Assembly (NCBI RefSeq): GCF_017348835.2
Contig: NZ_CP071375.1
Origin: Escherichia coli
GTDB lineage: Bacteria; Pseudomonadota; Gammaproteobacteria; Enterobacterales; Enterobacteriaceae
DNA: 64,000 nt
Strand: one strand, 5' to 3'
Shown here: in pieces, positions 5,976 through 17,955 of the stretch
How the letters are laid out: every line of letters starts with the position of its first letter
How positions within the stretch are numbered: the stretch's first letter is position 1
The notes under the pieces: model-generated
What the model saw: the letters and a program-made list of their open reading frames with translations, nothing else
Told to the model about the DNA's origin: nothing
Database searches by the model: none
Translations under genes and position numbers: made by a program

Positions 5976-8900
5976 TCACTGGAAACAAGTAACCAGACCA
6001 GGTTTATTGGCTAACGTGATACAACAATCCTCTGTGCCAGTGCTCTCGTCCATCCCACACCGTTGAGAGGACAAGTAAGGGAAACTTGGCGAAGCTGGCC
6101 ATCCCAGCGAATTAAACACAGTATACAATGTCTCTAACTCATTGTATGTCGGTGCATTTTCTATATTTCCACACTGCTTCGAGATATCCCATTTGCTGGC
6201 ATCAGTAATATGCGCAGAAGCCCAGTTTTCGTAGTTAATAATCGGTGAGGATACGGGATTGGCCCCGGACGGTAATTCAGTTGTCAGTATCGGTCGATGT
6301 AATGTTTTTCCATTCACCACTGCCGTGTCTGCCATATGCCCCCAGAAGTGAGCAGAAGATACATTTGGGCTGGTCAATACGGTGAAAATAGTGTCCATCA
6401 TTGCAGTCACTGTTGGGTATTTATCCAGCGTTACCGTCAGCGGCATTTTATAACCCGGCGTATTGTCCTGACGAACAGTAAAGTTTGCCGTGCCGTCTGC
6501 CCCCGTCACGCCACTGATCTCGTTCCCACTAACCGCCAATAGGGTAGCCGCCCCCGATGATGGCTGGATGGTAATATCATCCATAGCCGCCACATCGCCA
6601 TATAGCGTCGCCCCACTATTACGCGGAGAGGCATCACCACGTCGCAGAGTAAACGCCACATTTGGCACAGGTTTCCCGGCGCTGTCTTTCACCGTCACGG
6701 TGACTGGCATTGCCTCGCCCTTCTTCACTTTCGCCGCCTGAGCGGTGGAGTCAAATGCCGTTGACGTCAGGGTGACGGTAGAAACCGTTGAGTGAGGGTG
6801 CACCAGGCACGCCTGGAAGGCGCGGCTTTTAGATACAGTCACAAGTTGACCTGTGTTGAAGTCAAATGATTCACAAGAATTCGCGCCCGCAGGACAATCT
6901 GCATTTGTCCACCACACATAGCTATTCTGTTTCACCGGCCAGCCAATCTCATTGACGATAGAGCCATTCGGATAGCGGTTGTATAAAGATTGAAGCTCAT
7001 CCAATGATGGATATCGTGCGCTTTCACAAGGGATAAGCTCCGGCAAATATCGCTGGGTAATATATGGCGCAGGCCAGCTTTCATTATTTATATTCACTTT
7101 AGTGAGCGAATAACCGCCACCGCTGGTTGCCCCCATTTCGGCCCACAGTTTCATCCGCTCAAACTGCGTTCCGTCTGCTGAGCTTACCGTTTCTGGCATA
7201 TGTCCCCAGAAGTTGGCTTTTGGCGTATCCGGGCTTGTTACTACGGTATACATCAGGTCGAGATCTGACTTTACCCCTGTTTCACGTGCAAGCGTCGCCG
7301 TAAACGGTGTTACCAGTCCCCAGGTATTATCCTGCGTAGCGGTTAACGTGATGATGCCATTACCGTCCGTAACCCCGTTCCAACTGGCGTTATCATCTGC
7401 AAATTTGTAATTGGCTTGCGCAACCGGCGTCAGGAACTGTAGCAGCAGATCATCTGCTGTCGAGCTTGTGAAATCACTCGGCGTGCGCACTTGTGCTGTC
7501 GCACGCGACAACCTGACGCTTTCATAGGCGGCAGGTCTGCCCGCATCATCCGTGACCTTGATAGTTAACGGTATTGATACGCCCTTCTTCGCCCATGCAG
7601 TCGGACGGTTGTCGTTGATGCCTGTTTTGTCCGCATTCAGCAACGTAGACGTCAACTCAATCGTCGTTGCCTCAGTGTGCGGGTCAACCAGGCAGAGCAT
7701 TAAATTGCCCGCCGTCGATGTTGTACTTTCGTTGCGGATAGCACCGCTCATCAGATCAAGCACCTGGTTATACCATGTTGAACTTGAAACAGTTTGGTCG
7801 TACGCCCACCAGTAATTACCTGCGTTAAGAGGCAGCCCCAAATCAGTTTCCAGCGCACCATTTGGATGGTCGTTGTAAAGCCCCATTAGCTCACTACTGA
7901 AGGGTTGATAAGGCGAAGTGCAGCCTGAGATCGAACTGTTCGCTTTGTTGGTTGCATCTGGTCGCGCCCAGTCTTCATTGTTGATATTAAAGGACGCAGT
8001 CCCGGACAACTCGGCCTTCAACTGTGGTCGCCTGAACGCGACGCCCGCGCTGCTGGTAAAGGTTTCCGGCATATGGCCCCAATAGTTAGCCTTCGGCGTA
8101 TCCGGGCTGGTGATCACTGTGAAAATCGCACTTAAAGATTGTGAAGCAATCGAACCATCGTCCAGTTTCGCCAACAACGGAATACGAACGCCATATCCTT
8201 TATGGAACTGATATACCGTCAACGTCGCCGTTCCGTCAGGCCCGGTAACACCATAAAAATCATCGCCCTCATTAATGATTGGCGTTTGATGATTGGATGA
8301 ATCCGTGATGTAAATTAATTTCGACTGGTAATCTGAACTTACTACATTCTGACGGCTAAGCGTCGCACCATGTTCCAGCAAGAAGGGTACATTACCCAGC
8401 AGATTTCCCTGCGCGTCGCGCGTTGTGACCTTAATGGTGATGAAATCATGATCAACTTCATAATTGGTTTTTGCTTTAACCCCCTGATTACCATCATAAA
8501 CCTGCGCTTGTTCAGAGGTTAACTCAATTGTGGCGACCTTCGGGTTAGCCGTTGTCTGGCAGGTTAAATACCCCCCTTTTGACTCCAGTACACTGCTGGT
8601 GCCATTACTCAGTTGCACACCAAGGTAATTACGATTACTTACGCTGGCACCATCGGCGGTGCTGGTGTCATAGACTTTTAATACTGGCCAGCCGTCTACA
8701 GCATGACCGCCCCAGCTTGTCGATAACGTGGTTAATGCATCTTTGGTCGGGATATTATCTGCGCCACAACCGTTATTTTTCGCATTCTTACTTGCCTGCG
8801 CTTCAGTAAACAGCGCCCAAATTTCGTTATCCTCTTCCGGGCTTTTACGTCCATTGCCGGGAGAACCACTCAGTTCTGAAAACAGGATCGGTCGCTTAAA

Positions 8901-11900
8901 CGTCAATCCTCCCGCTGTGAGTGTTTCTGGCATATGCCCCCACATTTTTGCCTTGTTAGTGTCAGGGCTGGTGACAACGGTAAAAATAGTGTCTAACGAT
9001 GCGTTTTTTGTTGGATCGGAATAGAGCGCAGCGGTAATTGCCGTTTTCGTGCCGTGAGTGTCCGGGCGGGTGATGGTGAGAATTTTGCTACCGTCACTCC
9101 CCGTTAACCCAGCGTATGCACTGGCAGTATCGTTAAGCGACATTTCATCTGACATTCCGGCATCCACCACGACCGGTGAAACGATCCCGTCACCGCTTCC
9201 TGCAATATGCTTTTCATTGCTACGGGTGTAACCATCGCCACGCTTCAGGGTAAAGGGCATTCCCGGCATCGGGTTACCCGCCGTATCTTTCACCGTGACT
9301 TTTACCTGTAGCGTTTCACCCTTTTTCAGTTTCGCTGCATTAAGCGTGCTATTCCACTGTGCCTGATCGACCACTTCCAGCGTAATGGTGCTGGCGGGTG
9401 GGTTAGCGTCCTTCAGGCAGGAGATATAAATTTCCGAGGAACTTGTTTGCACGTTTCCGTTATTCAGCCAAACCGCTGCAAAGTGCGGGACTTTATCGGT
9501 AGGCGTGCTACTCCAGTAAGGCTGGCGCTGAGTCGGCCAACCATGCTCAGTTTGAATCGCGTTATTACTGTTGGCGCGATAGAGCGCATCAAGCTGTGAC
9601 TGGCGTGGCACTTTATTGGCCTCACAACCGCCCACCGCGCTATTTTCGATCTCGGACTGATCGACGCGTAACCAGGTTTCATTATTTTCATCAAAGGGAC
9701 GCCCGGAACCGCTTACCTCCACCGCCAGTTTGGGGCGATTAAATGTAATAGAATCCACAGTTATCGTGTCATCCATGTGCCCCCACATTCTCGCTCCCAT
9801 CACATCCGGGCTGGTGGGAACCGTAAAGATTACATAGTAGTTAATGGTATTCGGCAGAACAGAATTAGGAGGCGTGACAACAAGTCGCGTTCTTAAGCCA
9901 ACGCCTTGTGGCTGCTCAACAACAACGGTTGCCTGCCCCTGTGCGTCTGTAATACCGGAGTAAACCATTGAGGATTGTGAGGTACCGTACTGCGTCCCAT
10001 TCAGGGTTATTGCGCCGTTACTGGGATCGGTAAACCCGGTTGCGCTTTCTTCACGGTCAAGACTGATATCTTTGGTAATAGTAAAAGCCGTGAACGGCAC
10101 CCGCTCGCCATTCAGAGCATTAACTGTGCGCACCGTCATGGTGATTTGTTCACCGACTTTCGCCCGTGCCAGGCTGCCCGAGGTAGTATCACGATCGGTT
10201 GTCACTTCAACCTTCGCCACCATCTCATTACCAGAGCACGAGAGATAGTTTTGTTTAAAACCGCTATAACTGTCGACGTTCCCTGTTCCGAGGTTTACCG
10301 ATGAATGCGTTGTCTGCTCCGCGGCAGTTAAATAGTCCTTTACTGCGGTTGGCCAGCCATACTCAGTCCCGATGATATTGCCAGGGTAAGCCGAATACAG
10401 ACTTTCCAGTGAGATCTCACGCGGTATATGCCCCGTGCCGCATTCTGCCTGCATACTGGTATTTTGATCGAATAACGCCCAGTCTTCGTTATTTTCCCGT
10501 ACTGTGCCTATTTCATGCGTGGTTTCAGCCGCCAGCAGCGGTCGTTTATATAAACTGCCAGCATCAATAATGCCGTGCATGTGGCCCCACATCCGCGCAT
10601 ATTCGCTGTCCGGACTGGTCACCACCGTAAAGACCACATCTTTGGCATCTTCAGCAGTGAAATTACTGCGCATTTTCGCCGTAATATGCGTTTTAACGCC
10701 TGCGCCGTCAGGCTGCGTCAGCAGCAGAGTTGCCTGACCATTGACGTCGGTCATTCCCTCATAATTATGATCATCTACCTTTTGCAGGTTGGTGCCGCCG
10801 GAAATTTGTACCGGATGCGCTTCCCACGCCGGATCGGTTTGATTTTTGCGGTTAACGCCGTCATCGAGATGCAGCGAGAAGTAGTAATAAGCCAGCGGCT
10901 GATTGTTATTTTTTTTATCGGTAATGGTCAGGCGTATCGTAGTGCTGTCACCGACCTCTGCCTTCGCGGCATTTATACTTTCATCAAAGTTACTGGGCGT
11001 GAGCACCAACTCTGGCTCAACATCGGGTTCTGCTTTATCCACACAGCTCACGATATACTTTGTACTGTCTGGTTTTTGCGCTTCGCTGCGGTTAGACACA
11101 TCAGCCGCGTGGTGCTGCCCGGTACTTCCTGCCAGAGATGACCAGTAATAATCACCCTGCATCGGCCAACCGGCGGTCTCCTGAATAGAGTTAGGGATCA
11201 CCGTAGCCAGCGCGCCAAACTGGCGCATGCCAGGCAAAATATCGCAGTGGTTATCTGCGCCACTCCAGGTGAAGGTCGACCAGGTTTCACCGTGATCGTT
11301 CACACTGCCATCTTCGTTATCAACTTCCGCCGCCAATTTCGGACGACTAAAGGTGTAATTCATGGCCGTCAGGGTTTCCGCCATATGGCCCCACATATTG
11401 GCCTGCGGGGCATCCGGGCTGGTGAGTACAGTAAATATCACCGCCGTTTCACTGGTTTGCGAGATGCCAGAAAGGCTGACCACCAGCGGCGTTTTGACAC
11501 CTGGACCATTGGGCTGCGTCACCGTGACGGTAGCTGCGCCATCAGCATTAGTCGTGCCCCGATACTCCGTTGCTGTGGTGGTGAGTTCAGTGGTATCAAG
11601 ATTGACAGGTGAGGTGTTATTCACCACTCCCTGGCGGTTTTCAGCATCTTTTCGTTTGATAACAAAAGGGATATTGCTCGCAATATTACCTTCACAATCT
11701 TGGGTGGTTACGGTTAAGGTGATTGAACCATCGACAGTAGTCTTTGCCGCTTGTAACGTATCGTCATAGCCACTGGCGCTAATTGTCACCAGGTCGCCCT
11801 GGGCGGGAGCAATATTCAGCGTCACTTTATGTTCAGCCAACGGCACCGTCCCCTGATTAGGCACACCAGTTAACGTGTAGAGGTAGAGTAAAGGTAGCGC

Positions 11901-12386
11901 TTCCTGCTCATTGATTCGCGGCCACGCCACCAAAGAACGCCCTGCCAGATTCTGCGCGCAGAAAGAGCGGTCCGGGCGCGGTTGTGGGCTGAGCGGCGTA
12001 TCTGGCGTCGCGGCATCCGTCCACACAAGAGATACAGCAGGAGGCGTCTGGTTTTGCCAGCCTAGCACGGGGGGATTAGAAAAAAGATCGCCTTCAGGAT
12101 CGTGAGGGTTAACCAGAATCATTCTCGCCGCTGTGTCATCAACACTGAATGCGCTGGGTTTTACAGATGCCTGAATGTCGTAGGTTTTGCTCGGATCAAG
12201 CTGAACGCTTCCCTGATAAACGGGTACGCTGGCGCTCTCTGCCCCGGGCACTGTGCCATTGATTGCGTCGGTCGAGATGCCAGTTTGTTGCCACTGGCCA
12301 CCTTTTAATACTGCCCCAACCTGAAAAGAGAGGAAGAGCAGAAAAACCGCCGTTATCGCTTTTATCAGTTTCAAAGTCCCGTCCAT
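5976..12386 (-). CDS. ratA: Giant repetitive secreted surface protein with seven Ig-like modules (RatA-like, CS54-island type)
   Basis: 2136-aa ORF with N-terminal signal peptide; an approx. 290-aa module recurs seven times, each ending in a T-V-(V/L)-T-S-P-D ... (M/F/Y)-W-G-H-M signature. Position next to sinI/sinH between xseA and yfgJ matches the Salmonella CS54 island. Confidence 0.7.
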
Positions 12387-12520
12387 GATTGAAACCTGCC
12401 CGTTTAAAGTTATTTTTTCACTTCAACCCACTTTGCTTAACGCTGGCTAAGCAAAGTGTGCGGAGAAGCACCATTCCCTTGCTGAAATGACCAGATTGTT
12501 GACAAAGTGCGCGTTATTCA

Positions 12521-12620
12521 TGCCGGATGCGGCGTTAACGCCTTATCCGACCTACAAAATCGTGCAAATTCAATACATTGCAGGAACCATGTAGGCCTGA
12601 TAAGCGAAGCACATCAGGCA
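12521..12620. repeat. REP elements (BIME-like pair)
   Basis: tgccggatgcggcgttaacgccttatccgacctac and inverted partner gtaggcctgataagcg...catcaggca match the E. coli REP consensus. Confidence 0.5.
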
Positions 12621-12676
12621 GTTTTGCCTTTGTCATCAATCTGACCATTCCCTTGCGGGAATGGTGCTGGTAAAGA

Positions 12677-13642
12677 TTATTTTCTCTGGTAATCGATGGA
12701 CAAACCGTAGCCCTGAACACCATCCGCGCCAAGGGTGAGGCCACCTTCGCTGTAGTCGAACGCAGTTTTCGCTTCGGCGTTGGTAACTGGGATAACCAGG
12801 TCGCTGTTGTTGTAGCTCGGGTTGACAATCCCACCGTTGGTACGCAGTTGCAGACTGGTACCGGTAAAGCGCCAGCGGTAGTTGTACTGGCTGGTAACCT
12901 CTTCGCCAGTGTCGTAGGAGCCGTTGCTGTTTTTATCTTTCCACAGCATGACCTGATAAGTGGTATTGGTTTTGAGTTTGGTTTCTTTGCCCAGCAGGTT
13001 GGTGTTAACACCCTGCTCATGAATGACAACTTTAACCGCATCGTCAAATACCGGACCTTCCGGAATATCATCGCTGTCAGAACCACCGCCCGCGTTGGTG
13101 GAGAGGTCTAACAGGATCAGTTGTTCTGCAACGTTAGGATCACCGGTCGTGGTGGTCGGGGTAATTTTCAAACCGATGTAGCGATCGGCATCCGCTGCGG
13201 CAATGGTATAGGTGTCACTGCCCGTTGTACCGATCTCTTTCGGATCACCCCCCGCCTGGTCGCTATAGCTCATCCATTGCAGCGTCGCTTTGGTTGCAGT
13301 GTTGTTGTCGTCAAGGTCGCCCTGGGTATCGCCAATGGCCCAGTTTGCAGTTAACTTGTCACCAATATGAAATTGCTTCTCGCCATCGGTTGAAGCAGAA
13401 CGTCCGCCACGATCAACGGTAATGGACACATGAGATTTATCGGCATCAGTCGTTTCTGACGCGCTACGGGTGATCCACGGCACGGTACCCTGAATCGTTC
13501 CGGTCGTTTGCGTCTCTGACTGCCACTGGCCCGCTCTAAGGTTGCCCTGCCCTTCTGCCATGGCGGCAGGCACTGCGCAGTACCCCGCTAAAGCCAGCGC
13601 CAGCGCGACTTTAGTCATCGGTCGCTTTAAATAGTGTTTCAT
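12677..13642 (-). CDS. sinI: Secreted protein, SinI-like (CS54-island type)
   Basis: 321-aa ORF with signal peptide MKHYLKRPMTKVALALALAGYCAVPAAMA; C-terminal approx. 90 aa are homologous to the C-terminus of the adjacent SinH-like protein. Confidence 0.6.
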   Translation of the reverse strand: MKHYLKRPMTKVALALALAGYCAVPAAMAEGQGNLRAGQWQSETQTTGTIQGTVPWITRSASETTDADKSHVSITVDRGGRSASTDGEKQFHIGDKLTANWAIGDTQGDLDDNNTATKATLQWMSYSDQAGGDPKEIGTTGSDTYTIAAADADRYIGLKITPTTTTGDPNVAEQLILLDLSTNAGGGSDSDDIPEGPVFDDAVKVVIHEQGVNTNLLGKETKLKTNTTYQVMLWKDKNSNGSYDTGEEVTSQYNYRWRFTGTSLQLRTNGGIVNPSYNNSDLVIPVTNAEAKTAFDYSEGGLTLGADGVQGYGLSIDYQRK

Positions 13643-13697
13643 TCAACTCTCTCCTTGATTAATTTCCAGCGGCTGGCCGATCGGCCATTACGCCGAT

Positions 13698-15878
13698 CTA
13701 GTGCTTGCTGTAAACCACACGTAATCCATACCCCTGCACGCCATCCTCTTTTTGGGCACCAAATTTCTGTACCGCTTCCTCGTTAGTGGCAGGGATGACA
13801 ATATCTTCATTACTGGTATTCGATTGCGCACCGGTGTAGCCATTGACGCTGTGTCCGGTAAATTCCCACTGGTAGTCGTATTGCGCCATTTCTTCTTCCG
13901 TCAGTTTTTCCGACTGCTGGAAAACGCCATCTTTGTTGACATCGCGCCACAGGACAAAACGATAGGCGTTATCAACAGGCAAATGCTCTTTCTCATTGCC
14001 GATAAGATTGATGGGGTTAGTCGCGGATACACGGTAGATAAAGGCATTAACATCGTTGCCCCCCGCGCCGAGGAAAGTCACATCGACATAGTTACTATCG
14101 TCATACGGTGCGGCCTTTGCTTTCCAGCGGAAGGTGCCGGGCAAAGTACTGGAGAGGGTGACGGTTCCTTTCTCTTTATCTTGCTTCGCGATAAAGACGC
14201 ACGGGTTATCGGTCGAGCAGGGTTTATTGGTGAGGGTGACTTTTTTATCCTGAGCATCGTAAAGCTGCGGACTCAGGCCATCTTCCGGCAGCGCATTACC
14301 GTTACGGTCAGTGTCATCACCAAAGCTATCGGTAACATCGAGATCCATCACCACGCCATCGACGCCATCCGCCTGAGCGCTGGCTTCATGACTGTGATTG
14401 TTTTCATCCGGCACATCCGCAATGTTGTTGACGATCAGTTCAATTTTGCGATCCTGCTGAACGGTGATTTCCACCACGCCGGAGTTTTGCCGGTTGCCTT
14501 TTTCATCTTCCAGAGCCAGACGCACGCGCCAGGTATTGAGTTTTTCCTGTTCGGCGGGATCAGAGCTGTACTGCCAGGCTGGCAGCACCAGATTCCAGTG
14601 GTTGTTGTTCCCTTCCGTGAGGGTATTTTCTTTGATAACCGGCATCACCAGAGTACGCGCAGCGTTGTTTCTCGCCTGCCAAGAGGCGACGACAATCTTA
14701 TAGTGATGATTGATTAGCGCATTGATTGTCCACTTACATTTTTCCAGCCCTACCGCAGCTTCGGGGGTGTCCTTGATGACACAATCCGGGTGTTCATTGG
14801 TGGCGTCAGCCTTCAGCCACAACGTAACGTCGAGAGGATCTTTTTCTTTATATTCCAGAACAATAAAATTATTGCGCTCAACAAAGTCATGGCGGCTGCC
14901 CATCAGCGAGTGAGCTGCTTTGACGTTATCGCTATTCAGTTGATCTTTTAGCGGAACACCGAACTGATAGTTAATCGTGGCGTTAACGCTAAGATCACTG
15001 TTATCTCCGGTACCTGCTTTATAATCCGTCCCGACCGTCAGTAACGGAACGGGTTGATAGTTCACGCCAAGCGTCACTGCATAGGGATCTTTTTCTAAAT
15101 TATCGGTGCCGAAGAGCGCCACTTCGTCACCATAATATTGCTCGAAAACAATTTTGCTCCCCAACTGAGGATAAGAAGGAAGCCTGGCTTCCGCCCGGAC
15201 ATCCCAGCCACGTGCGGGGCGTTCTAAATAGAAATCAAAATCTTTTGAATCTTTCCACTCTGAAAGCGGATGATAATAGTTACCAGAAAATTTTAAATAA
15301 TCCGTCCAGGCTTCTGTTCCCAAACCTAAACGGCGATGTCCGCGGGTGAAATCATAATCATAAAATATATTCCCCCCCAGAAGCCATTTATCAAAATTAT
15401 GTCTTACACCTAAACCTATATTACCTATCGTGCGTTCTTCTTTTCGTTGCGCAGAAAACTGACTGAAATAGACTGTGCTCTGATTGTCATACCAGGGGAC
15501 AAAATAGTCGATTGAACTGCCGTCCAGATCGCCACCCTGACCGATGGAAAGGTTAGAGCGAACTTTACCATAAGGAGAAAGCGCACCTTCGATATAAGAC
15601 TGTGCAGATGATGTGATTTGCCCTTGCAGATAGCTTCTCGCCTGGGATTCAAGAGCTTCTGGAGTCAGGTTCTCAAAGCCCTGCTGGGCGGACTCGGTAA
15701 CGTAATTGGCACCACGTTCCTTGAAAGATTTGCCTTTGTTACTTTGTTCCTCTTGTTGAGCCGTTTCGCTTGCCAGATCAGGTAATGAAGATTCGCTTTG
15801 CTTAATATTTATCTCCGGTGCCGCATAAGCAGCACCAGAAATAACGATTAGCGTTATATAGCGAATCCATCGCAGCAT
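13698..15878 (-). CDS. sinH: Intimin/invasin-family outer-membrane adhesin (inverse autotransporter), SinH-like
   Basis: 726-aa ORF with signal peptide; aromatic-rich N-terminal region typical of the intimin/invasin beta-barrel, then extracellular domains; AT-rich upstream region. Confidence 0.7.
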   Translation of the reverse strand: MLRWIRYITLIVISGAAYAAPEINIKQSESSLPDLASETAQQEEQSNKGKSFKERGANYVTESAQQGFENLTPEALESQARSYLQGQITSSAQSYIEGALSPYGKVRSNLSIGQGGDLDGSSIDYFVPWYDNQSTVYFSQFSAQRKEERTIGNIGLGVRHNFDKWLLGGNIFYDYDFTRGHRRLGLGTEAWTDYLKFSGNYYHPLSEWKDSKDFDFYLERPARGWDVRAEARLPSYPQLGSKIVFEQYYGDEVALFGTDNLEKDPYAVTLGVNYQPVPLLTVGTDYKAGTGDNSDLSVNATINYQFGVPLKDQLNSDNVKAAHSLMGSRHDFVERNNFIVLEYKEKDPLDVTLWLKADATNEHPDCVIKDTPEAAVGLEKCKWTINALINHHYKIVVASWQARNNAARTLVMPVIKENTLTEGNNNHWNLVLPAWQYSSDPAEQEKLNTWRVRLALEDEKGNRQNSGVVEITVQQDRKIELIVNNIADVPDENNHSHEASAQADGVDGVVMDLDVTDSFGDDTDRNGNALPEDGLSPQLYDAQDKKVTLTNKPCSTDNPCVFIAKQDKEKGTVTLSSTLPGTFRWKAKAAPYDDSNYVDVTFLGAGGNDVNAFIYRVSATNPINLIGNEKEHLPVDNAYRFVLWRDVNKDGVFQQSEKLTEEEMAQYDYQWEFTGHSVNGYTGAQSNTSNEDIVIPATNEEAVQKFGAQKEDGVQGYGLRVVYSKH

Positions 15879-16087: not shown

Positions 16088-16303
16088 TTAAACAATGACA
16101 AATTCAATACGGGTTTTAGAAATTAAACCGTGACCATGCAGGCAGAAATAATCCACCGCACCACACGCTTTTAATACCTGCAACGGTTGGTGGCAGTCAG
16201 GACAAAGAGCCTGGACTATGAAATCTTTGTTACACGTTGCGCAGTGAGTAGCCTCGCCATTACGTTCGAGAGGGTTTTGGCAGATTGGGCAGCTGAGTTC
16301 CAT
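16088..16303 (-). CDS. yfgJ: Small zinc-ribbon protein YfgJ
   Basis: 71-aa ORF with two CxxC pairs (CPICQ...CATC; CPDC...CLHGH); conserved position upstream of der. Confidence 0.8.
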   Translation of the reverse strand: MELSCPICQNPLERNGEATHCATCNKDFIVQALCPDCHQPLQVLKACGAVDYFCLHGHGLISKTRIEFVIV

Positions 16304-16365: not shown

Positions 16366-17838
16366 TTACTTACTTTTCTTGATATGCTTCATCAGGCGCT
16401 TACGCTTGCGCATCTGGGTCGGCGTCAGGGTGTTACGCTTATTCGCATACGGGTTTTCCCCTTCTTTGAACTGAATACGAATCGGCGTCCCCATCACATC
16501 CAGAGACTTGCGGAAATAGTTCATCAGATAACGCTTGTAGGAATCCGGCAGGTCTTTTACCTGGTTACCGTGAATCACCACAATCGGCGGGTTATAGCCA
16601 CCTGCGTGAGCATACTTCAGCTTCACACGACGACCACGTACCAGCGGCGGCTGGTGATCTTCAACTGCCATGGTCATAATACGTGTCAGCATAGACGTTC
16701 CCACACGACGGGTGGAGCTGTCATACGCTTCACGTACTGATTCAAACAAGTTACCAACACCACTGCCGTGCAAGGCAGAGATAAAGTGCACACGAGCAAA
16801 ATCGATAAAGCCCAGACGGAAGTCCAGCGTTTCTTTCACCTGCTCTTTCACTTCCTGACTCAGGCCATCCCACTTATTCACCACAATGACAAGTGAGCGC
16901 CCACTATTGAGAATAAAGCCCAGCAGCGAGAGATCCTGATCGGAAATACCTTCGCGCGCATCAATCACTAACATCACCACGTTGGCATCTTCAATGGCCT
17001 GCAACGTTTTGATTACGGAGAATTTCTCTACAGCATCGGTGATTTTGCCGCGTTTACGTACGCCAGCGGTGTCAATGAGCACATACTCACGTCCATCGCG
17101 TTCCATTGGGATGTAGATGCTGTCACGCGTCGTGCCAGGCATGTCGTAAACAACAACGCGCTCTTCACCAAGAATACGGTTAGTGAGTGTAGACTTACCT
17201 ACGTTCGGACGACCCACAATCGCCAGTTTGATCGGCAGACTTTGCGGGTCGAAGTCGTCTTCCTCTTCTTCTTCGCCGTTCTCTTCCGCTTCAAATTGCG
17301 CCCAGTATTCAGCGTCTTCGTCGACTTCCTCTTGCGGTGCGAGATCTTCCATCCACGGCAGCAGCACATGCTCCAGCAGACTTAATACGCCACGACCGTG
17401 AGACGCGGCGATCGGGTAGATTTCACCTAAACCAAGCGAGTAGAAATCAACCACTGCCTGATCGGGATCCAGACCGTCAGTTTTGTTTGCCACCAGGAAG
17501 GTCGGTTTTTCACGGGAGCGCAGATGTTTGGCAATCGCTTCATCTGCCGGCATCAGGCCCGCGCGCGCATCCACCATAAACAGTACGACGTCCGCTTCTT
17601 CAATCGCCAGCAGCGACTGTTCCGCCATGCGGGTTTCTACACCGTCTTCTGTGCCATCAATCCCGCCGGTATCAATACAGATAAACTCACGGCCTTCAAT
17701 TTCCGCACGACCGTACTTACGGTCACGAGTCAGACCCGGGAAATCCGCAACCAGCGCATCTCGGGTGCGAGTTAGACGGTTAAATAACGTGGATTTTCCT
17801 ACGTTAGGGCGCCCGACAAGCGCGACCACAGGTACCAT
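16366..17838 (-). CDS. der: Ribosome-associated GTPase Der (EngA), two GTPase domains
   Basis: ORF track 16366..17877; start trimmed to [22 protein letters not shown] (490 aa) with GAGG Shine-Dalgarno 8 nt upstream; two G1 motifs GRPNVGKS. Confidence 0.93.
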
Positions 17839-17955
17839 GTTTAAAGCCTCATTTTTATAAATCATCAGACAACGCACGCTATATTCGCGTCGTTGTTAAA
17901 AACAGGAAAACGGCCCCTGTCCAGGAGCCGTTTTCAAAGTGAACGACAGAGACGA

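What the first reader, a model, noticed from the sequence alone, without database searches (positions are those of the whole stretch)
12677..13980. SinI and SinH share a homologous C-terminal module of about 90 residues
SinH ends ...YRFVLWRDVNKDGVFQQSEKLTEEEMAQYDYQWEFTGHS...DIVIPATNEEAVQKF...DGVQGYGLRVVYSKH and SinI ends ...YQVMLWKDKNSNGSYDTGEEVTSQYNYRWRFTGTS...DLVIPVTNAEAKTAF...DGVQGYGLSIDYQRK. The shared module sits at the distal tip of the outer-membrane adhesin and at the end of the small secreted protein, which suggests a common binding or lectin-like domain, or that SinI is a soluble form of the SinH tip.
Basis: seen in the sequence. Interest (0 to 1): 0.5.

Follow-up and report, generated by a model that had tools for sequence, protein, structure and literature searches.

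The report
Shared tip domain of SinH and SinI
The outer-membrane adhesin SinH and the small exported protein SinI encoded next to it really do end in the same ~120-residue domain, but this was already reported for Salmonella; here it turns out to be a family-specific beta-sandwich with a calcium-loop-like motif, not a lectin.

Summary
SinI residues 215-320 align with SinH residues 624-725 at 40% identity (E=3e-17; z=26.6 against 1000 shuffles). The module is about 118-122 residues, not 90.

It is not new. The SinH/SinI similarity was reported by Kingsley 2003, as cited in Heinz 2016, and NCBI's SinI and SinH family models cross-match on this region.

What I add:
- **Loop.** An EF-hand-like loop (D-x-N-x-N-G-x-x-D-x-x-E) is present in 44 of 49 module sequences.
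- **Synteny.** The SinH-type/SinI-type gene pair, both ending in the module, is conserved in 16 of 16 enterobacterial loci where both genes lay within the fetched DNA.
- **Phylogeny.** The modules group partly by lineage rather than by protein, which implies at least one secondary copy between the two genes.
- **N-terminus.** SinI and the downstream RatA-like protein share a motif directly after the signal peptide.

Most likely SinI is a ZirS/ZirU-type exported partner of SinH that carries a second copy of the adhesin's distal head. Export, docking, calcium binding and ligand are all inferred.

The parts
13698..15878 (-). sinH, intimin-like inverse autotransporter (726 aa)
   Evidence: NCBIfam NF033423 scores 1481 bits against a cutoff of 999. 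Pfam IAT_beta covers residues 64-337, E=7.8e-105. Invasin and intimin barrels 4e1t/4e1s match at E=2e-71 and 3e-63. RefSeq annotates it as sinH.
13701..14054 (-). SinH C-terminal tip module (aa 609-726). It corresponds to 'Ig-like domain 3 / RBD / SinH-3' in the literature.
   Evidence: The module HMM covers 609-726. BLASTP to SinI. Xing 2023 defines SinH-3 as residues 602-724.
13908..13943 (-). EF-hand-like loop in SinH, DVNKDGVFQQSE (aa 646-657)
   Evidence: Coordinates. Loop conservation.
12677..13642 (-). sinI, SinI-family autotransporter-associated protein (321 aa). It lies 55 nt downstream of sinH and has its own AGGAG ribosome-binding site.
   Evidence: NCBIfam NF040711 scores 419.8 bits against a cutoff of 165. 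No Pfam hit. Sequence read. No terminator-like site between the two genes.
13556..13642 (-). Predicted Sec signal peptide of SinI (aa 1-29, ending AMA|EG)
   Evidence: Read from the sequence: basic n-region, hydrophobic core, AxA site. No prediction tool was run.
13478..13531 (-). N-terminal motif GQWQSETQTTGTIQGTVP of mature SinI
   Evidence: The pattern occurs only twice in the six-frame translation of the window. It is conserved in all SinI-like proteins examined.
13103..13462 (-). SinI N-terminal beta-rich domain (about aa 61-180), weakly ZirU-like
   Evidence: NCBIfam ZirU_fam E=1.5e-6, 28.5 bits against a cutoff of 100, over residues 61-213. Conserved GD..T..W..D.EGD.D ... Y.I...D...YIG..ITP pattern.
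13046..13102 (-). Gly/Asp-rich linker (aa 181-199, ...STNAGGGSDSDDIPEGPVF)
   Evidence: Variable in length across homologs. Model residues 1-9 (SinI aa 190-198) have pLDDT below 50.
12680..13045 (-). SinI C-terminal tip module (aa 200-321)
   Evidence: The module HMM covers 200-321. AF2 pLDDT 87.7, pTM 0.81.
12902..12937 (-). EF-hand-like loop in SinI, DKNSNGSYDTGE (aa 236-247)
   Evidence: Coordinates. D1 is present in 49 of 49 sequences; D1/[DNS]3/[DNS]5/[ED]12 in 44 of 49. The only PDB sequence hits are a lanthanide-binding tag and an EF-hand protein, both through this loop and neither significant.
5976..12386 (-). ratA-like giant repeat adhesin gene (2136 aa), third gene of the cluster. 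It carries no tip module.
   Evidence: Best NCBIfam match is PRK15316 'RatA-like protein', at 3237 bits, below that model's cutoff of 3870. The module HMM finds nothing in it.
12246..12299 (-). N-terminal motif [18 protein letters not shown] of the RatA-like protein
   Evidence: hhalign of the SinI N-region against the RatA N-region gives probability 86%, E=4.9e-6.

Best explanation
The shared segment is one domain family: a ~120-residue beta-sandwich found only in SinH-type inverse autotransporters and their SinI-type partners. It forms the last (distal) passenger domain of SinH and the C-terminal domain of SinI.

SinI is built as signal peptide, conserved N-terminal motif, weakly ZirU-like domain, flexible Gly/Asp linker, then tip module. 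Most likely it is a Sec-exported partner of SinH of the ZirS/ZirU kind. In this reading it reaches the cell surface or the medium in a SinH-dependent way. It then becomes part of a multi-protein adhesin together with the RatA-like protein, and presents a second, diverged copy of the adhesin's head. The head is probably stiffened by Ca2+ bound in its EF-hand-like loop.

The N-terminal motif, which SinI shares with RatA, is the better candidate for the partner-recognition or export signal. The tip module is the functional end, used for ligand binding or head-to-head docking.

Shown here: homology, domain limits, predicted fold class, loop conservation, synteny, the N-terminal motif, and the lineage pattern of the tips. 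Inferred: export route, dependence on SinH, docking, Ca2+ binding and the ligand.
For: - **Homology and fold.**
- **Restricted family.** The profile search of 1.84 billion proteins returned 78 hits at E<=0.001. The full-length module lies at the C-terminus of proteins of about 300-400 aa and about 730-750 aa. Foldseek against AFDB50 has 27 matches at E<=0.001; those that carry an informative name are SinI-like, SinH-like or invasin/intimin-annotated, several are unnamed, and two carry an unrelated name.
- **Conserved pairing.** In all 16 enterobacterial loci where both genes lay within the fetched DNA, the autotransporter gene is directly followed by the partner gene and both end in the module. 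The same layout recurs in four further loci with more diverged tips.
- **Link to ZirU.** SinI residues 61-213 match the ZirU family model weakly. ZirS secretion depends strictly on the autotransporter ZirT (PMC2270342). Heinz 2016 proposed SinI and Rat-like proteins as SinH substrates (PMC4943183).
- **Shared N-terminus.** The motif occurs only in SinI and RatA within the window, and in every partner gene of the other loci. hhalign gives E=4.9e-6.
- **Exposed rather than housekeeping.** E. coli sinI alleles are only 40-48% identical, while sinH is 74-96% identical, with its tip the most divergent of the folded domains.
- **Copied more than once.** Clade-B SinH tips score 118-124 bits against clade-B SinI tips but 52-59 bits against clade-A tips. 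Quartet support is 497-499 of 500 and the neighbour-joining split has 99% support.
- **Co-transcription.** sinH and sinI are reported as co-transcribed (PMC12525524).
Against: - No experiment on SinI localisation, secretion or binding was found in the searchable literature.
- IatB (the E. coli SinH) forms biofilm without the downstream gene (PMC6714894), so SinH has functions that do not need SinI.
- The ZirU match is far below the family cutoff (28.5 against 100 bits).
- Tips are not always closely matched. In L026, L019 and L018 the autotransporter tip is a Cys-containing variant without the loop, while the partner keeps the loop. Some SinI-like genes have no adjacent autotransporter (L020, L025).
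- The EF-hand-like loop is a sequence pattern only.
- I could not model a complex, because the tool returns no inter-chain confidence.
Confidence: 0.5

Rival explanations
1. SinI is essentially a free, soluble copy of the SinH head. Both heads bind the same host ligand, possibly a sugar, so SinI acts as a soluble competitor, primer or bridge.
For: The modules are homologous and have the same predicted fold. SinI has a signal peptide and no barrel or anchor. Residues invariant in both proteins include the loop aspartate, W257, P285 and the C-terminal G-x-Q-G.
Against: No lectin fold appears among the listed matches; there are only weak Ig-like matches. Tips within a locus are only 31-51% identical, so a shared specificity is not implied. 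SinI has a conserved extra domain and an N-terminal motif shared with RatA, which a simple soluble head would not need.
Confidence: 0.2
2. The two-partner-like translocation model of Heinz 2016. The SinH passenger stays or returns to the periplasm, recognises SinI (and RatA) through Ig-like domain contacts, and the SinH barrel then exports them. Under this model the shared module would be the recognition surface.
For: The ZirT/ZirS precedent. The model and operon survey in PMC4943183. Conserved gene order.
Against: RatA lacks the module but shares the N-terminal motif, so the module cannot be the general export signal. IatB/SinH is reported as surface-exposed. The barrel lumen is occupied by the linker, a problem Heinz 2016 itself discusses. 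A 2136-aa RatA passing through a 12-strand barrel is hard to picture.
Confidence: 0.15
3. SinI is a periplasmic chaperone or assembly factor that holds the SinH tip before export by pairing with its look-alike domain.
For: SinI is always co-encoded with SinH and is beta-rich, like several periplasmic chaperones (a general point made).
Against: Allelic divergence of SinI within E. coli is very high (40-48% identity) while SinH stays at 74-96%. That pattern is unlike a housekeeping chaperone and typical of exposed proteins. Orphan SinI-like genes exist with no adjacent autotransporter.
Confidence: 0.1
4. The similarity is chance, low complexity, or a recent gene-conversion artefact.
For: None beyond the short acidic and Asn-rich loop.
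Against: z=26.6 against shuffles and E=3e-17. The similarity is conserved across 49 sequences. Nucleotide identity is 47-54% with no long exact runs.
Confidence: 0.01

Closest known systems
sinH-sinI-ratA of the Salmonella CS54 island / E. coli 'ila' cluster (IatB locus)
   Same: Same genes in the same order, next to der/yfgJ. NCBIfam equivalog and family scores are above cutoff for SinH and SinI. The SinH/SinI similarity is already documented (Kingsley 2003 via PMC4943183; PMC6714894).
   Different: The window carries a rare E. coli allele, found in 46-48 of 5426 genomes. Its SinI tip is closer to the Salmonella and Citrobacter proteins (68-76% tip identity) than to the common ExPEC SinI (43-45%).
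ZirT-ZirS-ZirU of Salmonella
   Same: An inverse autotransporter followed by Sec-signal partner genes that resemble its passenger domains. ZirS secretion requires ZirT. SinI's N-terminal domain weakly matches the ZirU family model.
   Different: The ZirU match is below the family cutoff. The ZirU model did not align to the tip module. No secretion data exist for SinI.
Distal domains of intimin (D3) and invasin (D5), C-type lectin-like
   Same: They occupy the same position, at the tip of an inverse-autotransporter passenger, and are presumed to be the receptor-binding end.
EF-hand-like (DxDxDG-type) calcium loops in beta-sandwich adhesin domains such as SdrD B repeats (from my own knowledge)
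   Same: A 12-residue D-x-[DN]-x-[DN]-G-x-x-D-x-x-[ED] loop sits between two beta-strands. The weak repeated hits in giant repeat proteins come mainly through this loop.
   Different: There is no significant Pfam or PDB match to those domains. The resemblance is local and probably convergent.

Membership tests
SinI family autotransporter-associated protein (NCBIfam NF040711) | Whole-protein HMM score above the curated cutoff | tested here: met
   419.8 bits against a cutoff of 165, residues 7-318.
SinI family autotransporter-associated protein (NCBIfam NF040711) | Encoded directly downstream of a SinH-type inverse autotransporter, with a signal peptide and no beta-barrel | tested here: met
   55-nt gap after sinH. 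No IAT_beta or any other Pfam hit. The signal peptide was read by eye only.
SinH inverse autotransporter (NCBIfam NF033423, equivalog) | HMM score above cutoff and an IAT beta-barrel | tested here: met
   1481 bits against 999. IAT_beta E=7.8e-105. Invasin and intimin barrels in the PDB match.
ZirU family (NCBIfam NF040485) | HMM score above the curated cutoff | tested here: not met
   28.5 bits against a cutoff of 100; E=1.5e-6 over SinI 61-213 only. This indicates remote similarity, not membership.
ZirTSU-type autotransporter-plus-partner system | Autotransporter gene followed by Sec-signal partner gene(s) that share a passenger-type domain | tested here: met
ZirTSU-type autotransporter-plus-partner system | Partner secretion depends on the autotransporter | not testable with these tools
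   Needs fractionation of tagged SinI with and without sinH.
C-type lectin-like tip domain (intimin D3 / invasin D5) | C-type lectin fold | tested here: not met
Bacterial Ig-like (Big) / IgSF domains | Pfam Big-type match or a clear structural match to an Ig-like sandwich | tested here: inconclusive
EF-hand-like calcium-binding loop | 12-residue pattern with D1, [DNS]3, [DNS]5, G6 and an acidic residue at 12 | tested here: met
   D1/[DNS]3/[DNS]5/[ED]12 in 44 of 49 tips; D1 in 49 of 49; G6 in 31 of 49.
EF-hand-like calcium-binding loop | Binds Ca2+ | not testable with these tools
   Needs ITC or DSF, or a structure with metal.
Classical two-partner secretion substrate (TpsA) | N-terminal TPS domain | tested here: not met
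   SinI has no Pfam hit at all. Its conserved N-terminal motif spans only about 18 residues.

The most novel reading that the evidence does not exclude
Every non-barrel protein of SinH-type operons begins, right after its signal peptide, with the same short motif ([ST]-x-x-x-I-x-G-T-x-P, extended to G-x-W-Q... in Escherichia and Citrobacter). This covers SinI, RatA-like giants and extra paralogs. The motif would be the so-far undescribed targeting or docking signal that couples these proteins to the inverse autotransporter, a type Ve counterpart of the TPS signal. The tip module would be an exchangeable head that has been copied between partner and autotransporter more than once.
Probability: 0.3. 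Interest if true: 0.6.

Novelty: already known. Interest (0 to 1): 0.3.

Why it matters
The SinH tip (SinH-3, residues 602-724) is being developed as an ExPEC vaccine antigen (PMC9937491). A co-expressed exported protein with a homologous domain could cross-react with those antibodies, soak them up, or escape them. Its alleles differ far more than those of SinH. The role of SinI-type partners is also the open question in how inverse autotransporters such as ZirT and SinH handle co-encoded proteins. The domain limits, the calcium-loop prediction and the shared N-terminal motif give concrete constructs and mutants to test that question. As a discovery, though, the similarity itself is a rediscovery.

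Tried and rejected
- **Single-sequence AF2 of full SinI.** It gave pLDDT 36 and was useless. The module had to be modelled from a 49-sequence alignment.
- **Word-indexed homolog search with the module.** It returned only 9 hits, several of them short or frameshifted.
- **Giant repeat proteins in the profile search** (up to 16 weak stretches, about 10 bits each). I first considered these a wider domain family. On inspection they are unrelated repeat types that match mainly through the W-x-D-x-N-x-N-G loop, so I rejected them as homologs. By eye they resemble Cna_B/SdrD-like, pre-peptidase C-terminal and LRR-associated repeats; I ran no family search on them.
- **Pfam on all 49 tips.** Only a weak DUF5057 hit in 5 members, through the loop region.
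- **PDB sequence profiles for the tip and for the SinI N-domain.** Nothing significant.
- **Recent gene conversion between the sinH and sinI 3' ends.** Rejected.
- **Tips co-evolving tightly within each locus.** Rejected. Within a clade, same-locus and cross-locus H-I identities are equal (38.1 against 38.6%; 46.1 against 46.0%), and some loci carry mismatched tip types.
- **Fused SinH-tip/SinI complex prediction.** Not attempted, because the tool reports no inter-chain confidence.
- **Primary papers.** Kingsley 2003 and Prehna 2012 are not in the held library, so I cite them only through Heinz 2016.
Full report
**What is at the site.**
On the minus strand the window carries four genes in a row:
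- der, at 16366-17877
- a small zinc-ribbon gene, at 16088-16303
- sinH, at 13698-15878 (726 aa)
- sinI, at 12677-13642 (321 aa), followed by a 2136-aa ratA-like gene at 5976-12386

RefSeq annotates identical E. coli DNA as 'intimin-like inverse autotransporter SinH', 'SinI family autotransporter-associated protein' and 'adhesion domain-containing protein'. SinH has an IAT_beta barrel (Pfam E=7.8e-105), and its sequence matches the solved invasin and intimin barrels. SinI has no Pfam match.

**Checking the observation.**
BLASTP aligns SinI 215-320 with SinH 624-725 at 40% identity, E=3e-17, and finds nothing else of note. The Smith-Waterman score is 178, against a mean of 30.2 and a maximum of 54 in 1000 shuffles (z=26.6). 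NCBI's curated SinH and SinI models cross-match on exactly this region (E=1.8e-19 and 1.7e-22).

A module HMM places the domain at SinH 609-726 and SinI 200-321. At the DNA level the two copies are 49.5% identical with no exact run over 8 nt. The homology is old and kept at the protein level.

**Is it known?**
Yes. Heinz et al. [quoted passage not shown] 2003)', and compare the arrangement to ZirT/ZirS/ZirU (PMC4943183). Goh et al. 2019 say the same for the E. coli orthologue IatB and its downstream gene (PMC6714894). Xing et al. [quoted passage not shown] I could not open Kingsley 2003 or Prehna 2012.

**What the module is.**
A profile of four module sequences was searched against 1.84 billion representative proteins and found 78 hits at E<=0.001. 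The full-length module occurs at the C-terminus of proteins of about 300-400 aa (SinI-like) and about 730-750 aa (SinH-like). Weak repeated hits in giant proteins proved to be unrelated repeat types that match mainly through one short loop.

From 49 tips I built an alignment and an AF2 model of SinI 190-321 with pLDDT 87.7 and pTM 0.81. It has five main strands and one helix.

Foldseek against AFDB50 has 27 matches at E<=0.001. Those that carry an informative name are SinI-like, SinH-like or invasin/intimin-annotated; several are unnamed and two carry an unrelated name:
- Salmonella SinI at TM 0.88-0.91
- E. coli and Hafnia SinH at TM 0.71-0.75, E about 1e-7
- a Yersinia invasin

Against solved structures the picture is weak:
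- Foldseek gives nothing below E=0.1.
- Neither intimin, invasin nor any lectin-named chain is among the listed matches.

No Pfam family covers the module. It is therefore a family-restricted, loosely Ig-like beta-sandwich, and 'lectin-like' is not supported.

**A conserved loop.**
Between the second and third strands lies D-K-N-S-N-G-S-Y-D-T-G-E in SinI (aa 236-247) and D-V-N-K-D-G-V-F-Q-Q-S-E in SinH (aa 646-657). This is the spacing of an EF-hand calcium loop. The first Asp is invariant in 49 of 49 tips, and 44 of 49 have D1, [DNS]3, [DNS]5 and [ED]12. The only PDB sequence hits of the tip profile, none significant, include a lanthanide-binding tag and an EF-hand protein, both through this loop. 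Calcium binding is a prediction only. Other invariant positions are W257, P285 and the C-terminal G-x-Q-G.

**Conservation of the pair.**
A genome scan returned 17 loci from Escherichia, Citrobacter, Superficieibacter, Leminorella, Rahnella, Lelliottia, Ewingella, Buttiauxella and Hafnia, plus one MAG labelled Collinsella. In all 16 loci where both genes lay within the fetched DNA, a SinH-type gene is directly followed by a SinI-type gene, and both end in the module. Four further metagenomic or genomic loci show the same layout with more diverged tips. In these, the autotransporter tip is a Cys-containing 'CGDQGF' variant without the loop, while the partner keeps the loop. Two SinI-like genes have no adjacent autotransporter.

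**How the two copies are related.**
The loci fall into two clades:
- **Clade A:** Escherichia, Citrobacter, Superficieibacter, Leminorella
- **Clade B:** Rahnella, Hafnia, Ewingella, Buttiauxella

Mean tip identities are:

| Comparison | Identity |
|---|---|
| H_A vs H_B | 31% |
| I_A vs I_B | 44% |
| H_A vs I_A | 38% |
| H_B vs I_B | 46% |

A four-point test with Kimura distances prefers (H_A,I_A)|(H_B,I_B) in 497-499 of 500 bootstraps. A neighbour-joining tree gives the split {H_B+I_B} 99% support.

HMM cross-scores show the direction:
- The H_B model scores I_B at 124 bits, but H_A at 55 and I_A at 52.
- The I_A model scores I_B at 106.

The simplest reading is that the SinI tips are orthologous across clades, and that the clade-B SinH tip is a later copy of the neighbouring SinI tip. 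So the module moved between the two genes at least twice.

Within a clade, same-locus and cross-locus H-I identities are equal, so there is no ongoing homogenisation. This analysis uses distance methods on about 110 columns and needs a maximum-likelihood test.

**Allele picture in E. coli.**
The window's allele is found in 46-48 of 5426 complete genomes, while about 1770 carry a sinH at about 78-80% nucleotide identity. Compared with two such strains, identity to the window allele is:

| Region | Identity |
|---|---|
| SinH barrel | 90% |
| SinH D1 | 94-96% |
| SinH D2 | 88-90% |
| SinH tip | 74% |
| SinI (N-domain and tip) | 40-48% |

The window's SinI tip is closer to Citrobacter (76%) and Salmonella (68%). 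The locus is therefore mosaic, and SinI is much more variable than SinH. That fits an exposed protein better than a periplasmic helper.

**The rest of SinI, and RatA.**
After a predicted signal peptide (AMA|EG, read by eye), mature SinI starts with NLRAGQWQSETQTTGTIQGTVP. The RatA-like protein starts with [21 protein letters not shown]. The pattern G.W[QIV]...[ST]..I.GT.P occurs exactly twice in the six-frame translation of the 64-kb window, at these two places. The core of the motif is found at the mature N-terminus of every SinI-like, RatA-like and extra partner protein examined in the other loci. Profile-profile comparison of the SinI and RatA N-regions gives probability 86%, E=4.9e-6 over 74 columns. 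SinI 61-213 weakly matches the ZirU family model (E=1.5e-6, below cutoff). RatA has no tip module.

**Mechanism.**
I commit to the partner model at a confidence of about 0.5. SinI is a Sec-exported, ZirS/ZirU-type partner of SinH. The N-terminal motif it shares with RatA is the likelier coupling or export signal. The tip module is a second copy of the adhesin head, probably calcium-stabilised, used for ligand binding or head-to-head docking.

Support from other work:
- ZirS secretion depends strictly on ZirT (PMC2270342).
- sinH and sinI are reported as co-transcribed (PMC12525524), and I found no terminator-like site between them.

Against the model:
- IatB/SinH makes biofilm without the downstream gene.
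- No data on SinI's fate were found.

The rivals are listed with their tests: a soluble head with a common ligand, translocation through the SinH barrel, a periplasmic chaperone, and chance.

**Verdict.**
The 'lectin' idea is not supported, and the 'soluble tip' idea is too simple. The extras found here are modest, testable additions: the fold class, the calcium-type loop, the repeated copying of the tip, the mosaic sinI alleles, and the N-terminal motif shared with RatA.

Noticed in passing
window 13478-13531 (-) and 12246-12299 (-); also L001-L017, L019, L024, L026, L027: SinI and the RatA-like protein share a motif directly after their signal peptides (GQWQ....[ST]..I.GTVP). It has only these two hits in the six-frame window, and its core recurs in every partner gene of SinH-type operons examined. 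hhalign of the two N-regions gives E=4.9e-6. Heinz 2016 described Rat N-termini as highly divergent, so this may not have been described before.
   Followed up: partly
window 12677-13642 compared with L022 8099-9091 and L023 8018-8995: The sinI allele in the window is only 40-48% identical in protein to the common ExPEC sinI, while the adjacent sinH is 74-96% identical. The window's SinI tip is closer to the Citrobacter and Salmonella proteins (68-76% tip identity). The locus is mosaic, and the window allele occurs in about 46-48 of 5426 complete E. coli genomes.
   Followed up: partly
window 12440-12676 (sinI-ratA spacer): The spacer holds a REP/BIME-type palindromic repeat, present at 30 to more than 40 places per genome in 5425 of 5426 E. 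coli genomes. A 41-nt imperfect inverted repeat lies around it (12467-12507 and 12628-12668).
   Followed up: partly
window 13577-13588 (-), SinI aa 19-22; clade-B loci L011-L017: The signal-peptide core of SinI carries an invariant A-G-Y-C in clade-A homologs, which is unusual conservation for a signal peptide. Clade-B homologs have F-[VA]-[GS]-C at the aligned place, which fits a relaxed lipobox. Some family members may therefore be lipoproteins.
   Followed up: no
L018 3-641, L019 3093-5906, L024 2400-3848, L026 2817-4928: In other lineages the autotransporter tip is a variant with two cysteines and a 'CGDQGF' end and without the EF-hand-like loop, while the partner protein keeps the loop. 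L024 encodes two SinI-like partners with different tip types.
   Followed up: partly
L020 6001-7074 and L025 2157-3356: SinI-like genes (P0039, P0066) lie beside the rpoA-rplQ ribosomal cluster. No inverse autotransporter gene is present in the DNA fetched around them.
   Followed up: no
L011, L013, L014, L016, L017 (gene after the sinI-like gene): Clade-B loci have no giant RatA. Instead they carry a second partner-type gene of 355-388 aa with the same N-terminal motif; where its sequence was long enough to read, it continues with a D.EGD.D pattern like that of the SinI N-domain.
   Followed up: no
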